64,000 nucleotides of DNA from a virus: positions 1 to 64,000 of the IMG/VR virus record IMGVR_UViG_3300048015_000072; one strand, 5' to 3'. The notes under the pieces were generated by a model, which had not been told where the DNA came from, did no database searches, and was given only the letters and a program-made list of their open reading frames with translations. A program made the translations under genes and the position numbers. The number at the start of each line of letters is the position of its first letter. Position 1 is the stretch's first letter. Shown piece after piece: positions 20,311 to 26,253 of the stretch.

Positions 20311-22170
20311 ATGGCAATCAAAAAATCGTTTCAAGGGGCGAACATTCGACAACCCGGAAGCTACTCGTTTTCCACAGTGGACAACTCAGGTGGAGCACCC
20401 CTTGCTGCTAACGGAACTTTGTTTCTTGTAGGTGAAGCGGATTCTGGAGCACCCGGATCGGCAGTTGGAATTCAACAATACTCGTCGGCATCGATGAGTG
20501 CATTGATTGCAAATTACGTTTCGGGACCGATTGTTGATGCAGCAAGAGCCGCTGCGATCCCAAGCATTACCCCAGGCATTCAAGGTTTTGACCAAGTTCT
20601 GGTTTACAAAACCAACGCTTCGGTTCAAGCATCGATTAATTTGATGAATTCTGCACCTTCAGCAATCATCGAAGTACTTGCTCAAAAATATGGTGTATCA
20701 GGCAATTACTTAACCATCGCTATTGCAGCCGGAACAAACCCCACTCTTCAACGACAAATCACAATCAAAGATAAAAAGAACATCGTTACTGAAGTTTTAA
20801 ACCAAAACCCGGCAATCCCGCAACTCAGCGTTCATTACGTCGGTTCAGGTTCAGCTTGTACGATTCAAATCTCGGGCGCTTCTGAAGCTGCAAAAGTTTT
20901 GACTTCAACTGTCACTGGAGCTTCCGGCCAAAACTTGAATTTGAGCCTCGCTAACTATTCCATGAAAGATCTTGTCGATGCTTTAAATAGCTTTGGCGGC
21001 GGATCGATCTATCAAGCTGTACTGTTAAACAGCCAAACTGGAACAGTTGTTGAAGCAAGTGACCTTGATCCAATCAACTCACTTGATATTCAAACGTCGA
21101 CTCAATCGCTTTATCGCTTACAGAACGAAATCGTTGAAGAAATCAACTCTTCACAATTGGTTAAAGCTATCAAGCTTGCTCCGATGGTTGGTCTTCCCGT
21201 TATCTTGTCTGAGAGTTTCTTGTCTGGTGGAGCAAAAGGCTCTTCTGGCAATCAAGACTTTGCAAACGGTCTTGCAGCTTCATTATCGGAAGACTACGGA
21301 GTTGCACTTCCTTGTATTAGCCAAGATGCCACTGTGGACATCGCAGCCGGTTTAACTGATGTGAATTCGACTTACACAGTTGCAAGCGTTATTGCGGCTC
21401 TTGAGTCCCATTTAATTCTCCGCGGTAGCATCAAGAACCGTAAAGAAGCACAAGGGGTTGTTGGTTTCAGAACTCAAATGAAAGCAAATGCCTATGCTCA
21501 AGCTCAAACTACAAATTCCTACTTGGTTCAGTTGTTTATGCAAGACGTCTTAGTCTTGGATTCAACTGCAACTCTGGTTTGGAAACAGCCCCACGTTCAG
21601 GCAGCAATGGCCGCCGGAATGCGACTCGGAACTGACATCGGAACACCTCTTACGCACAAATTCTTAAATGCTTATGGAGTTGGTCATTTCGTTGACCCCG
21701 TTTCTGGAATGTCGATGGGTGACTTCGATCCAAACTTGGATTCAGACAACGCAATTGATGCCGGTGTAACATTTGCCGAAAAGAATAGCGGCGGATACCG
21801 AATTGTTGTGGACAACACAACCTACGGAATTGATCAATCGTTTGTGTTCAACCGCGGTTCTGTTGTTGAAGCTTCGAATTACATTGCTCAAACTTTGAGA
21901 GCAACGGCTGAATTGGTTTTTGTTGGTCAAAAAGTCAGCAACGGTGCAGCTTCTTCGATTAAAAGCGTTCTCCGAAGCAAGCTGATTGAGCTGAACAAAG
22001 CAGATATCATCACCGCCTCTTCAGATGCTCCCCAAGGTTTTGTTGAAAAAACATTTACGGTTTCGATTCAAGGAAACACTGCAACTGTGAATTTGGAAGT
22101 TAAGCCGGTTCAAGGTTTGGACTTCATTTTGATCAACTTTACACTCGGTGACATCCAACAAAGCGCTTAA
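20311..22170 (+). CDS. Contractile tail sheath protein
   Basis: 619 aa; F.G..IRQPGSYS N-terminus, LVGEADSG, FLSGG, C-terminal VKPVQGLDFILINF. Confidence 0.92.
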   Translation: MAIKKSFQGANIRQPGSYSFSTVDNSGGAPLAANGTLFLVGEADSGAPGSAVGIQQYSSASMSALIANYVSGPIVDAARAAAIPSITPGIQGFDQVLVYKTNASVQASINLMNSAPSAIIEVLAQKYGVSGNYLTIAIAAGTNPTLQRQITIKDKKNIVTEVLNQNPAIPQLSVHYVGSGSACTIQISGASEAAKVLTSTVTGASGQNLNLSLANYSMKDLVDALNSFGGGSIYQAVLLNSQTGTVVEASDLDPINSLDIQTSTQSLYRLQNEIVEEINSSQLVKAIKLAPMVGLPVILSESFLSGGAKGSSGNQDFANGLAASLSEDYGVALPCISQDATVDIAAGLTDVNSTYTVASVIAALESHLILRGSIKNRKEAQGVVGFRTQMKANAYAQAQTTNSYLVQLFMQDVLVLDSTATLVWKQPHVQAAMAAGMRLGTDIGTPLTHKFLNAYGVGHFVDPVSGMSMGDFDPNLDSDNAIDAGVTFAEKNSGGYRIVVDNTTYGIDQSFVFNRGSVVEASNYIAQTLRATAELVFVGQKVSNGAASSIKSVLRSKLIELNKADIITASSDAPQGFVEKTFTVSIQGNTATVNLEVKPVQGLDFILINFTLGDIQQSA

Positions 22171-23423: not shown

Positions 23424-23843
23424 ATGAAATTGGCTAGATCCACAAGCATTGAGGCTTACAAAAAGATTCAAGCTGAAGGGCTTTTAAGCAAGCTACGTTT
23501 CCAAGTCTACGATGTGTTATTTAACCGAGGCCCTTTGACCCAAGGGGAGACCTGGAAAGAGCATTTCGGATCAAGTCAGCGCCATACGATATGCCCGAGA
23601 TTTGCTGAATTAGAATCATTAGGGGTCGTCCAGTGCGTTGGAGAGCGCCCATGCAGGGTAACGGGTAGGGTTACTAGGCTCTACGACGTAACCGACCAAT
23701 TACCATCCGACTTCAAACCCAAAATCACCAATGCCCAGAGAGTTCAAATCCTACGAAGAATCTGCCAAGACGCAGCCCAAGTATTTCGAGCCCAAGGGTT
23801 TGATGAAGTGGCCTCGGAAATAGAAAGCCAGATCGATCTATGA
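23424..23843 (+). CDS. Winged-helix DNA-binding protein
   Basis: TSIEAY...GPLT.GE...PRFAELE.LGVV pattern; its promoter TTGCAG-17-TATCCT is overlapped by TATTTAACC copies. Confidence 0.65.
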   Translation: MKLARSTSIEAYKKIQAEGLLSKLRFQVYDVLFNRGPLTQGETWKEHFGSSQRHTICPRFAELESLGVVQCVGERPCRVTGRVTRLYDVTDQLPSDFKPKITNAQRVQILRRICQDAAQVFRAQGFDEVASEIESQIDL

Positions 23844-24073
23844 ACTACGTGTTTGAGTGGTCTCAAGCTTACCTCATGCACTTCGCGGGTTGGGTGTCTT
23901 TTCTGCTCGCCTTTCAGGTCTACAAAAAAGGCCTTCCAAGGCTTTGGCTAATCCCGGAGCTAGTGAAGTCAGCAATCGCTATGGCGCTTGTTGTGGGGCT
24001 GTTCTCGAGTGCAGCACACAATCATTACCTTTCTCATTTCCTTCAAAAACCAACCAAAGTTTTTTCCAAATAA
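23840..24073 (+). CDS. Small membrane protein
   Basis: Two hydrophobic segments; ATGA coupling. Confidence 0.5.
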   Translation: MNYVFEWSQAYLMHFAGWVSFLLAFQVYKKGLPRLWLIPELVKSAIAMALVVGLFSSAAHNHYLSHFLQKPTKVFSK

Positions 24074-24110
24074 AAATTGACGTTCAATCGTAATTTCAAT
24101 AGGTTGGAGC

Positions 24111-24221
24111 AAAGGGCGTCGGTGTAGTAGCGGCCCCCGCAACCATTAACTCAATGATTTCAATTACTTAGACGAAAAGGTCGTCGGTAAAAAGGTCGTC
24201 GAGGTCGTCGTTTTAAATCGG
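24111..24221 (+). mobile_element. attP-like site: tRNA-fMet 3' end plus arm repeats and IHF-like sites
   Basis: CGGCCCCCGCAACCA (24131-24145) equals the canonical tRNA-fMet 3' end; AGGTCGTCG x3; adjacent to the integrase. Confidence 0.75.
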
Positions 24222-24273
24222 TTTCCGCTACAAATACTAAGGCCCTTTCAACTTTTTTCCGAAAGGGACCTAT

Positions 24274-25404
24274 ATGTCAGAGTCAAAAGGCACGTATTCC
24301 GTTAGCAAGTCTTCAACCTACAAATGCGGCTGGCGCTTGCGTCGAAAGGTTTGGATCGATCAAAAACCTGTAACACAAGTTGTACCGCAAAAGGCTTGGA
24401 AGGCCTTGGGTTTTACTCAAGATATGAGCCTTGAGACGGCTAGAGCTAGAGCCTCGCAGTTAAATGAGTTACAAAGCCTAGAATCCGAAAAAATAAGGAA
24501 AGCTGCAAACCGAGTAATTAGGATTGATCGAGTCGAAAGTGCTTTTTTACCAGAACACCTTGTTGTTGAGTTTCAAAATCAAATTTTAGGTAGACGTTTT
24601 GCTGGCGAGATCCACCGCAAAAAAATGGTAAGTCACTGGCGTAAATTACAAAAGCTAATTGTCGATGTAGAAATTGAGCCGAGCCAATATTCGGAACATT
24701 CAGAAAAGATCTACGATTGGTTTATTGAGAACGAATTGTCACTTCAATATACGTTAAAGCTTATAGCGTTGCTCAATCGATGGGGATTATTTTGTTGCAA
24801 AAAAGAAGGCAAATTCTTTGAACCAATTCATATGCCAAAAGGTAAGGATCGGGAACTGATTGCAGATACTTATTATGAATCAGAAGGGTTCAGAGGGGAA
24901 AGCGATCCATTAACCCCCGAAGAACTTGAATCCAAAAAGAACCATTTTTCAGAAGCACAATATCGATGGTTACTTGTTTCAATTTGGTTTGGACTTAGAC
25001 CACAAGAAATCAATGCTTTAAAAATTGCAGACCCCTCAAAATGGAAAGTTGAATACAACAATGACCTTGGAGTTGAAGTCTTAAGCGTTTATCAACCAAA
25101 ACTTGTGACTATAGAAAGGGAGAAACGTTGGAAACGTATTCCGGTATTCTTGCCGAAGCAGAAGTTGGTTTTAGCATACATAATGGAAGGCGGACTTAAA
25201 ACCCCGCTTTACAAAAAGATGTCTGAGGTTTTCACTGGCAAACGAATTACTTTGTACGGGGGAAGAAAGAACTTCGAAGACCTTATGAAGACGCATGGTC
25301 AGCAAATCACGGATATTGCCCAATGGTTGGGACATCAAACAATTGAAAGAACCTGGACTAAATACCGAAATAAGAACAGAGTTTCGTTTACTAAGGTTTC
25401 TTGA
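24274..25404 (+). CDS. int: Tyrosine integrase/recombinase
   Basis: GLRPQEI (catalytic R), YGGRK (HxxR variant), QWLGH, terminal catalytic Y (WTKY). Confidence 0.88.
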   Translation: MSESKGTYSVSKSSTYKCGWRLRRKVWIDQKPVTQVVPQKAWKALGFTQDMSLETARARASQLNELQSLESEKIRKAANRVIRIDRVESAFLPEHLVVEFQNQILGRRFAGEIHRKKMVSHWRKLQKLIVDVEIEPSQYSEHSEKIYDWFIENELSLQYTLKLIALLNRWGLFCCKKEGKFFEPIHMPKGKDRELIADTYYESEGFRGESDPLTPEELESKKNHFSEAQYRWLLVSIWFGLRPQEINALKIADPSKWKVEYNNDLGVEVLSVYQPKLVTIEREKRWKRIPVFLPKQKLVLAYIMEGGLKTPLYKKMSEVFTGKRITLYGGRKNFEDLMKTHGQQITDIAQWLGHQTIERTWTKYRNKNRVSFTKVS

Positions 25405-25930
25405 GAAATAACTCAGGAAATTGGGCTTTGCGTTCTTCAACAATGGCCCTGATAATATCAAGCGAAACTGGAACCCCCCGAAGCTGTTCAACGCTGACAT
25501 TCAAATATCGAGGGTCTTCGCCATGGTCTGGATGCTTTACGATACCTTGGTGGAGATGCCCGTGGACGTTCACAGTGCCCCGTAGCGAGTTTGGATGAAT
25601 GGGGGCATGGCTCAGCCATAGGCCCTTGTACTTAATCAACCCGTAGACGTTTTGAAAGTAGGGTTTAAATACTTCGAGATCGCCTCCGTCATGGTTTCCT
25701 CGGATCAAGAATTTTTGACCTTTCATCTTGTTTAGGTATTTGAGATTTTCGTGACCAAAAGCCACATCACCCAGCACGTAAACGATGTCACCTTTGCCCA
25801 CTACCGAATTCCATTGGTCTACCAGCCAAAAATTCATTTCTTCAGTTGTGGCACCTTCCCGGTATCCTTCAGTGAAACTAAGGATGTTTTTATGGCCTAG
25901 ATGAAGGTCTGAAATAAAAAAGATTGTCAT
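25391..25930 (-). CDS. Calcineurin-like metallophosphoesterase
   Basis: DLHLGH, GDVA, GNHD, HGHLH; likely start MTIFFISD at 25930. Confidence 0.88.
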   Translation of the reverse strand: MTIFFISDLHLGHKNILSFTEGYREGATTEEMNFWLVDQWNSVVGKGDIVYVLGDVAFGHENLKYLNKMKGQKFLIRGNHDGGDLEVFKPYFQNVYGLIKYKGLWLSHAPIHPNSLRGTVNVHGHLHQGIVKHPDHGEDPRYLNVSVEQLRGVPVSLDIIRAIVEERKAQFPELFLKKP

Positions 25931-26253
25931 CCGCCAACCTTGGTTAAAACCATGCCCAAGATCATCAAAAACACCCCAAGTATTGCGATGTTTGAGATTC
26001 GAACATTGAATACCAAAACAGGCACTAGACAATAAGCCCCTACGATCATGGCGTCCCAGTAGAGCCCATATAGGTATCTAACGTGCTGATCCGGGGCTCG
26101 CTTTGCAATCGTTAACCAAAGCAGGTTTGCCGCAATCGAAATGGAAATTCCATTCAAGTAGTAATAAAGCGGGACATTTTGAAGTCGATTGGAGTTACTT
26201 ACCAAGACCGATAAAATGTAACAAATCGCACCGGGAATGAAGAAGTAGAGCAT
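25927..26253 (-). CDS. Small 4-TM membrane protein (SMR/DMT-like)
   Basis: Four hydrophobic helices; ILGVFLMILGMVL C-terminus. Confidence 0.6.
   Translation of the reverse strand: MLYFFIPGAICYILSVLVSNSNRLQNVPLYYYLNGISISIAANLLWLTIAKRAPDQHVRYLYGLYWDAMIVGAYCLVPVLVFNVRISNIAILGVFLMILGMVLTKVGG

What the first reader, a model, noticed from the sequence alone, without database searches (positions are those of the whole stretch)
24077..24273. Integrase att site whose arm repeats copy the host tRNA-fMet target, with a non-homologous 7-nt segment
Seen: 24111-24145 AAAGGGCGTCGGT-GTAGTAG-CGGCCCCCGCAACCA aligns without gaps to the canonical tRNA-fMet 3' half GAAGGTCGTCGGT-TCAAATC-CGGCCCCCGCAACCA, but the 7 nt covering the T-loop are replaced. 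Beyond two IHF-like sites (24147-24170) lie three tandem repeats: AAGGTCGTCGGT (24177), AAGGTCGTCG (24192) and AGGTCGTCG-TTTTAAATCGG (24202). These are again the tRNA variable-loop/T-arm sequence. A sigma70 promoter TTGACG-17-TAGGTT would start transcription at about 24112. Known: lambda-type integrases need identical 7-bp overlaps and use arm sites unrelated to attB, whereas Tn916/CTnDOT integrases tolerate mismatched overlaps. Inference: this integrase may read the same AGGTCGTCG word in attB and in its arm sites, selecting the tRNA by protein recognition rather than overlap homology. More speculatively, the transcribed repeat leader could act as a target-matching RNA.
Basis: partly seen in the sequence, partly recalled or inferred. 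Interest (0 to 1): 0.8.

Follow-up and report, generated by a model that had tools for sequence, protein, structure and literature searches.

The report
Phage attachment site copying its tRNA target
This is the attachment site of a temperate phage of predatory Bdellovibrio-like bacteria. The integrase-binding repeats in it spell the same short word as the arm of the initiator tRNA gene that the phage inserts into, and related elements show the same pattern. The supposed mismatched crossover segment is more likely a phage-specific spacer next to an ordinary 15-base crossover block.

Summary
Window 24111-24145 matches the last 35 nt of a Bdellovibrionota tRNA-fMet at 27/35 positions: an 11/13 left word, 7 replaced nt, then 15/15. 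Three perfect copies of AGGTCGTCG follow at 24178, 24193 and 24202.

The region is the attP of a 101-kb myovirus-like phage. It sits just upstream of a divergent tyrosine integrase (24274-25404) that has no Pfam hit. About 100 homologues, nearly all in Bdellovibrionota, lie 110-250 bp downstream of a tRNA or tmRNA gene.

In 11 attP or attR junctions the layout is constant:
- a word at -31 from the tRNA 3' end;
- a 3' identity block;
- an IHF-like site at about +15;
- three arm words at about +33 to +69.

The -31 word always matches the element's own arms. In the window's clade the arms also follow host tRNA T-stem variants. In a distant clade they stay GGACG-like whatever the target.

The closest relative with DNA (Int 52% identical) has ATAGTAG plus a 15-nt identity, so the 7-mer is a conserved phage sequence. 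Short attL/attR identities put the crossover in the last 12-15 nt of the tRNA. A heterologous overlap is unlikely but not excluded.

Verdict: a new variant of a heterobivalent integrase attP.

The parts
24078..24106 (+). Sigma70-like promoter (TTGACG, 17 nt, TAGGTT) reading across attP towards int. After integration it would face outward at attR.
   Evidence: Below the scan threshold. A -35 TTGAMN with a 17-nt spacer is positionally conserved upstream of the left word in about 10 related attPs (mean score 8.7 against 7.5 +/- 0.9 in controls).
24111..24123 (+). Left word (the '-31 word'): a one-mismatch copy of the arm repeat, at the place of the tRNA variable loop and T-stem 5' strand.
   Evidence: A word matching the element's own arms starts at -30 to -32 from the CCA in 11 of 11 attP/attR junctions.
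24124..24130 (+). GTAGTAG: a phage-specific 7-mer replacing T-loop positions 2-7 and the first base of the T-stem 3' strand. Probably a spacer or the outer part of the left core half-site.
   Evidence: 1/7 match to the tRNA. ATAGTAG sits at the same place in L106. AGTA sits in the same register in L079 and in the L019 attR.
24131..24145 (+). 15-nt block identical to the 3' end of tRNA-fMet (T-stem 3' strand, acceptor 3' strand, CCA). Inferred crossover region.
   Evidence: Identity blocks of 12-16 nt ending at or just after the CCA are seen in the attL/attR pairs of L016, L019 and L029.
24150..24171 (+). IHF-like bend site(s). The better one is TCAATTACTTA at 24160-24170.
   Evidence: The same motif class occurs at +14 to +24 (most at +15 or +24) in 22 of 36 loci, against 1.3% of controls.
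24176..24188 (+). Arm repeat 1 (P'1-like).
   Evidence: It is in either orientation in relatives.
24191..24201 (+). Arm repeat 2 (P'2-like).
24202..24232 (+). Arm repeat 3 (24202-24210), continuing into a degenerate copy of the rest of the tRNA 3' half.
   Evidence: p about 0.006 for the extension. The extension is not seen in L106 or L002.
24238..24272 (+). Hairpin and sigma28-like element (TAAG, 16 nt, TCCGAAAG at 24258-24265) directly before the int start.
Evidence: Inverted repeat. A CCGAW motif lies within 45 nt of the int start in 18 of 36 loci, against 3.8% of controls.
24274..25404 (+). Integrase, 376 aa: an N-terminal three-stranded sheet plus long helix, a helical core-binding domain and a tyrosine-recombinase catalytic domain.
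   Evidence: PHROG integrase hits at E about 3e-5 and no Pfam hit. AF2 model pLDDT 90.8. Foldseek hits to Cre, Tn1549 Int and lambda Int. R242, K276, R331, H354 and Y364 are invariant in 34 homologues.

Best explanation
This is the attP of a temperate myovirus-like phage of Bdellovibrionota that integrates at the 3' end of a tRNA-fMet gene.

The site is compact, about 110-130 bp:
- an outward-facing sigma70-like promoter;
- one copy of a 9-12-nt word at -31;
- a phage-specific 7-mer;
- a 15-nt block identical to the tRNA 3' end, where strand exchange takes place;
- an IHF-type bend site;
- three more copies of the word;
- the int gene with its own small promoter.

The four words are binding sites for the integrase, most likely for its N-terminal sheet-plus-helix domain. 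IHF would fold the three downstream words back onto the core, as in the lambda P' arm. The -31 word would be contacted next to the core.

The -31 position lies inside the tRNA-derived part of the site, and after integration the host tRNA's own word occupies it in attL. The word has therefore been kept similar to the variable-loop/T-stem 5' strand of the target tRNA, and it follows host T-stem variants.

What is shown: the layout, its conservation, the covariation and the position of the identity blocks. What is inferred: which protein domain binds the words, the exact cleavage points, and whether the tRNA's own word is read in attB.
For: - Integrase: a tyrosine recombinase by fold and by invariant catalytic residues.
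- Context: 124 genomic relatives were confirmed (the best 80 kept, 77 distinct loci), nearly all in Bdellovibrionota. A tRNA or tmRNA gene ends 80-250 bp upstream of int on the same strand in 35 loci.
- Constant layout in 11 attP/attR junctions: word at -30 to -32, arm words at about +33 to +69, and no consistent further words in 450 nt to the left.
- IHF-like motif at a fixed offset.
- Covariation: the arms score best with their own tRNA word in L002, L006, L007 and L017 (rank 0 of 21-22, z 4.4-6.7). L008, L016 and L061 score high (z about 2.3), as do several tmRNA loci (L033, L021, L055).
- Three fMet elements follow three host T-stems. The window has GTCGG, and the exact host gene is present in 18 of 401 genomes. 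L002 has GTAGG. For L106 I predicted from its attP a host gene with GGAGG/CCTCC, and then found it in 2 of 251 genomes.
- The -31 word follows the arms even where they differ from the tRNA: the L019 attR, the L016 junction, L081 and L082.
- Crossover position: attL/attR identities are 12-16 nt ending at or just after the CCA in L016, L019 and L029, and 35 and 51 nt in L002 and L061. The common part is the last roughly 12 nt.
Against: - No experiment: no cleavage site, footprint or lysogen of this phage is available.
- The fold search with the N-domain alone did not recover lambda or Tn916 arm-binding domains (best Z 5), so assigning the words to that domain rests on topology and analogy.
- No clear inverted core half-sites could be found around the 15-nt block.
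- In the distant clade whose integrases start MGYY, the arms are constant (GGACG-like) for tmRNA, Ser, Asp, Val, Glu and Met targets. The distance between the left word and the identity block also varies there. The rule is therefore not general for the family.
- L019 and L020 show little similarity between arms and tRNA.
- The sequences compared are related to one another, so the ranks are not independent.
Confidence: 0.6

Rival explanations
1. The word is the left core site, the 7 replaced nt are the overlap, and the integrase exchanges strands across a non-homologous overlap as Tn916 and CTnDOT integrases do. The tRNA is chosen by protein recognition of the word.
For: The word, the 7 nt and the 15-nt block have the 7-nt spacing of a core. 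The 15-nt block could be conserved only because it must rebuild the tRNA. One of two daughter chromosomes after a heteroduplex would have exactly the observed arrangement of an intact attL and a phage-type attR (reasoning). Tn1549 Int is among the best structural matches.
Against: Half of the integrants would carry a tRNA with a destroyed T-loop and a broken G53-C61 pair. RTAGTAG is conserved between phages whose integrases are only 52% identical, which fits a protein contact better than a free coupling sequence. Other family members keep identity only in the last 12-14 nt or 19 nt (L081), which shows where homology is needed. Cre and lambda Int match the model as well as Tn1549 Int does.
Confidence: 0.1
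2. The resemblance of the words to the tRNA is only historical. attP began as a captured tRNA 3' half, and the arm sites arose by duplication of its left end. The integrase reads only the phage's own four words and never the host's word.
For: The third repeat continues into a decayed tRNA half. A 31-nt unit (IHF-like motif plus word) is duplicated at 24093-24123 and 24157-24188. In L019, L016, L081 and L082 the -31 word agrees with the arms and not with the host tRNA. In the distant MGYY clade (integrases starting MGYY) the arms stay the same across different targets.
Against: The arms follow host-specific T-stem base-pair variants in the three fMet elements. In the window the arms are identical to the host word while the phage's own -31 word carries a mismatch.
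Confidence: 0.22
3. The words bind another phage protein (an excisionase/directionality factor or a repressor), or they act through the transcribed leader as a target-matching RNA.
For: A promoter-like element would start transcription at about the left word. The words lie between that promoter and int, where an operator could sit.
Against: The only gene consistently linked to the words in about 45 loci, including islands of about 5-10 kb (L002, L019, L061), is int. The first word is inverted in many relatives, which fits duplex-DNA binding by a protein and not a fixed RNA guide. There is no Rfam match. No tyrosine recombinase is known to use a guide RNA (general knowledge).
Confidence: 0.06

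Closest known systems
Lambda Int attP (heterobivalent tyrosine integrase; core, H' IHF site, three tandem P' arm sites)
   Same: A core followed by an IHF-type site and three tandem arm repeats. The integrase has an N-terminal small domain, a core-binding domain and a catalytic domain. The crossover lies in a short block of identity with attB.
   Different: In lambda the arm sites are unrelated to attB, and a long P arm carries P1 and P2. Here there is a single left site about 8 nt from the identity block and no long left arm. All four sites spell the target tRNA's own word. The protein has no Pfam match.
ICEclc IntB13 (tRNA-Gly 3' end, Pcirc/Pint; review PMC5812530)
   Same: 18-bp identity with the tRNA 3' end. 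A weak promoter lies next to int, and a stronger outward-facing promoter is fused upstream of int only in the excised form. The window has the same geometry: a sigma70-like element before attP and a small promoter before int.
   Different: Promoter activity is untested here. No tRNA-copying arm repeats are described for ICEclc in the text I read.
Phage mv4 integrase (tRNA-Ser 3' end; bioRxiv 10.1101/2023.11.06.565760)
   Same: A heterobivalent integrase acting at the 3' end of a tRNA gene. [quoted passage not shown]
   Different: That adjacent arm site was later rejected in favour of a classical 7-7-7 core, and the 7-bp overlap determines specificity. The mv4 arm sites lie at the far ends of both arms.
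Tn916 / Tn1549 / CTnDOT integrases
   Same: Tyrosine recombinases with arm-binding domains. Tn1549 Int is among the best structural matches.
   Different: Their defining tolerance of heterologous overlaps is neither shown nor needed here. They do not rebuild a tRNA gene.

Membership tests
Tyrosine recombinase superfamily | Catalytic domain fold | tested here: met
   AF2 model pLDDT 90.8. Foldseek hits to Cre, Tn1549 Int, lambda Int and XerH at E 5e-5 to 1e-3.
Tyrosine recombinase superfamily | Catalytic residues R-K-H-R-H/W-Y | tested here: met
   R242, K276, R331, H354 and Y364 are invariant in 34 homologues. The first His of HxxR is Tyr328 (nearly invariant).
Heterobivalent (lambda-type) integrases | Separate N-terminal arm-binding domain (three-stranded sheet packed on a helix) | tested here: inconclusive
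   The model shows strands 7-12, 20-28 and 31-36 and a helix at 53-91. The fold search gave only Z 5 or less, to unrelated PH-like domains. Pfam finds nothing.
Heterobivalent (lambda-type) integrases | Repeated arm sites separated from the core by a bend site | tested here: met
   Three repeats at about +33 to +69 and an IHF-like motif at a conserved offset (+14 to +24, most at +15 or +24; +15 in the window), conserved across the family.
Heterobivalent (lambda-type) integrases | Arm sites differ in sequence from the core and attB | tested here: not met
   The arm word equals the word next to the core in attP (11/11) and resembles the attB tRNA word.
Tn916/CTnDOT-type integrases | Strand exchange across a non-homologous overlap | not testable with these tools
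   attL/attR comparisons are compatible with a crossover inside the identity block and cannot exclude heteroduplex resolution.
tRNA 3'-end integrating elements | attP carries the tRNA 3' end so that the gene is rebuilt at attL | tested here: met
   15/15 identity to the host tRNA-fMet 3' end. Intact tRNA or tmRNA genes lie upstream of int in 35 integrated relatives.

The most novel reading that the evidence does not exclude
The integrase's arm-binding domain reads the same word in the phage arms and in the host tRNA gene (variable loop and T-stem 5' strand, at -31 from the 3' end). Target choice would then be made partly by the arm-binding domain on attB itself, and not only by core binding and overlap homology. 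This would be a compact four-site intasome: one protomer reads the -31 word of attP, one reads the -31 word of the tRNA, and two read the IHF-delivered arm repeats. Such a system could be retargeted by changing the repeats and the 3' block together.
Probability: 0.3. Interest if true: 0.8.

Novelty: new variant of a known kind. Interest (0 to 1): 0.6.

Why it matters
How tRNA-targeting integrases choose among very similar tRNA genes is poorly understood, as is how they switch targets. Arm sites are textbook examples of sequences unrelated to the target.

This work describes a whole integrase family without a Pfam model, specific to predatory Bdellovibrionota, with a very compact attP. In that attP the arm sites, a site beside the core and the host tRNA share one word that changes with the host's T-stem.

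If the host word is really read, target specificity would be written in short DNA repeats that can be compared, predicted and engineered. The family would also supply integration tools for Bdellovibrio-like bacteria, which are hard to manipulate genetically.

The region also gives a clear example of an outward-facing promoter that would drive int only in the excised form.

Tried and rejected
The contigs of the closest integrases (P0002-P0007, 53-59% identity) could therefore not be fetched. Only L106 (52%) was reached, through the metagenome scan.
- A single-protein scan of viral contigs found nothing.
- Pfam gave no hit even at E 10. A PDB sequence search gave nothing relevant.
- The N-domain fold search was inconclusive.
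- Rfam found no family in 23800-24500. ARAGORN found no tRNA gene in the window.
- The consensus promoter scan found no sigma70 site.
- I looked for inverted core half-sites around the 15-nt block and for a right-hand inverted copy of the 7-mer, by eye. None was convincing.
- I looked for further words in the 450 nt left of the core. None was consistent.
- Literature searches for arm sites that copy the tRNA, or for this Bdellovibrionota family, found nothing. The library holds open-access papers only.
- The earlier notes of this scan held no similar tyrosine-integrase case.

Full report
**What is there.** The window is the first 64 kb of a 101-kb virus record. A tail-sheath gene lies at 20311-22170 and other phage genes lie on both sides of the finding. 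This is therefore an unintegrated phage genome, and the site is an attP.

The ORF at 24274-25404 has no Pfam hit, even at E 10, but it matches two PHROG integrase families. It folds with high confidence (pLDDT 90.8) into three parts: a small N-terminal three-stranded sheet with a long helix, a helical domain, and a tyrosine-recombinase catalytic domain. The model matches Cre, Tn1549 Int and lambda Int. R242, K276, R331, H354 and Y364 are invariant in 34 homologues.

**The observation.** Against a tRNA-fMet gene taken from a Bdellovibrionota genome, 24111-24145 gives 27/35 without gaps: the left word 11/13, the 7-mer 1/7 and the 3' block 15/15. The exact 9-mer of the repeats occurs three times in the window, all at 24178-24210. 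The repeat family includes the left word.

**Relatives.** The integrase has 61 other protein relatives in the large database. 124 places in genomes were confirmed (the best 80 kept, 77 distinct loci), almost all in Bdellovibrionales, Bacteriovoracaceae and Oligoflexia. There are 10 viral contigs and one closer metagenomic contig, L106, at 52% identity.

In 35 genomic loci a tRNA or tmRNA gene ends 80-250 bp upstream of int on the same strand. The genes are tRNA-Met/fMet, tmRNA, Ser, His, Ala, Asp, Val and Glu. This is the attL configuration. It agrees with the 128 nt between the tRNA-like 3' end and int in the window.

**The common layout.** Three features recur after the tRNA end.
- An IHF-like motif lies at a fixed offset. 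TCAR-N4-TTR occurs at +14 to +24 (most at +15 or +24) in 22 of 36 loci, against 1.3% of control segments. In the window it is at 24160-24170.
- Two or three copies of a 8-12-nt word follow, the first in either orientation, with spacings of about 15 and 9 nt.
- In 11 attP or attR junctions, a word matching the element's own arm repeats starts at -30 to -32 from the CCA. No further copies occur consistently in the 450 nt to the left.

The site is thus compact. One word sits beside the core and three lie behind an IHF bend, like the lambda P' arm but without a long P arm.

**Do the words follow the target?** I scored every tRNA word against every spacer.
- The element's own tRNA was the best of 21-22 different words for L002, L006, L007 and L017 (z 4.4-6.7).
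- It was near the top for L008, L016 and L061, and high for several tmRNA loci (L033, L021, L055).
- It showed no signal for L019, L020 and the Ser, Asp, Val, Glu, Ala and His loci.

Most of the no-signal loci (not L019 or L020) belong to a distant clade (about 35% identity; most of its integrases start MGYY). Its arms are GGACG-like whatever the target, and they resemble the tmRNA word that is the clade's main target.

Within tRNA-fMet the fit is fine-grained.
- The window's arms carry the GTCGG T-stem strand. Its 3' block demands the complementary strand, and the exact host gene exists in 18 of 401 genomes of the phylum.
- L002 has arms and a tRNA with GTAGG.
- From the L106 attP I predicted a host tRNA-fMet with a GGAGG/CCTCC stem. 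I then found it in 2 of 251 genomes, and one L106 arm matches it 10/10.

Where the arms differ from the host tRNA, the -31 word sides with the arms. This holds for the L019 attR, the L016 junction, L081 and L082. What is strictly conserved, then, is the identity of the four words within an element. Similarity to the host word is frequent and tracks the host in the window's clade, but it is not obligatory.

**The 7-mer and the crossover.** L106 has the same design as the window: a left word, ATAGTAG, then 15 nt identical to its host tRNA. The L016 junction has a left word, 7 replaced nt (one more base matches by chance) and a 15-nt identity, while the tRNA at attL is intact. L081 keeps only 19 nt. 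The 7-mer is therefore a conserved phage sequence and not decay.

attL/attR identity blocks are 12-16 nt plus 1-5 nt past the CCA in L016, L019 and L029. They are 35 and 51 nt in L002 and L061. The part common to all is the last roughly 12 nt of the tRNA, which is where homology is needed.

I therefore place the crossover in 24131-24145 and read GTAGTAG as a spacer or the outer part of the left core half-site.

These data cannot exclude it, because one daughter of a heteroduplex would look the same. But it would destroy the tRNA in the other daughter, and it does not explain why homology is kept only at the 3' end. I give it about 0.1.

**Promoters.** A TTGAMN -35, a 17-nt spacer and a TAnnnT element recur just upstream of the left word in about 10 related attPs, although the window's copy fails the consensus scan. 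After integration this element would point out of the prophage at attR. In the phage form it reads through attP into int.

A second element, sigma28-like (CCGAW), lies within 45 nt of the int start in 18 of 36 loci, against 3.8% of controls. This is the geometry of Pcirc and Pint in ICEclc (PMC5812530). Activity is untested.

**Comparison with known systems.** The site works like a lambda-type attP but fails one textbook feature, that arm sites are unrelated to attB. For phage mv4, which also uses a tRNA 3' end, an arm-type site next to the overlap was once proposed and later rejected (bioRxiv 10.1101/2023.11.06.565760). That is a warning for my reading of the -31 word.

I found no description of this family, or of arm repeats that copy the target tRNA, in three literature searches.

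**Limits.**
- There is no experiment.
- The related sequences are not independent.
- The N-domain fold search was inconclusive.
- No inverted core half-sites were identified.

Noticed in passing
window 24093-24123 and 24157-24188: A unit of about 31 nt (IHF-like ATTTCAAT motif, spacer, word) is present twice, once ending in the left word and once in arm repeat 1 (families D1 and D2). It is not seen in L106.
   Followed up: partly
window 24202-24232: Arm repeat 3 continues into a decayed copy of the rest of the tRNA-fMet 3' half, with several C-to-T differences (p about 0.006). This hints that the arm sites arose from duplicated tRNA fragments.
   Followed up: partly
window 24238-24272 and loci: A sigma28-like -10 motif (CCGAWA, often GCCGATAA-like) lies 6-20 nt before the int start in half of the family. 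In the window it sits within a 12-nt-arm hairpin. The leader would be very short.
   Followed up: partly
L090, L096, L102 (tRNA-fMet loci of other Bdellovibrionota genomes): Other inserts behind tRNA-fMet also carry tandem or inverted repeats after an IHF-like motif. These repeats contain GGTTC or AGGTC, which are pieces of the T-arm region. The phenomenon may extend beyond this integrase family. I did not determine the integrases there.
   Followed up: no
L022, L024, L026, L043, L058, L066: In tmRNA-targeting relatives the left word (GGCYGTGG) is separated from the 11-14-nt tmRNA 3' block by 0, 9 or about 55 nt. In L022 the changes are concentrated in the T-loop and T-stem, as in the window.
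   Followed up: no
L016 20340-20420; L019 15010-15090 and 17670-17750: These are tandem arrays: the attR of the first element is followed by the arm region of another element or by a second attR-like copy. Several elements pile up at one tRNA-Met gene.
   Followed up: no
G264 contigs C39, C115, C159: One genome holds four copies of the 31-nt tRNA-fMet 3' segment, two of them 14 kb apart on one contig. This is probably an island with a long att repeat.
   Followed up: no
window 24124-24130; L106; L079; L019 attR: AGTA occupies positions 17-20 from the tRNA 3' end in four attPs with three different targets. It is a possible integrase contact.
   Followed up: partly
window 25391-26032 (-): A metallophosphoesterase gene (Pfam Metallophos, PHROG 547) converges on int and overlaps its end by 14 nt.
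   Followed up: no
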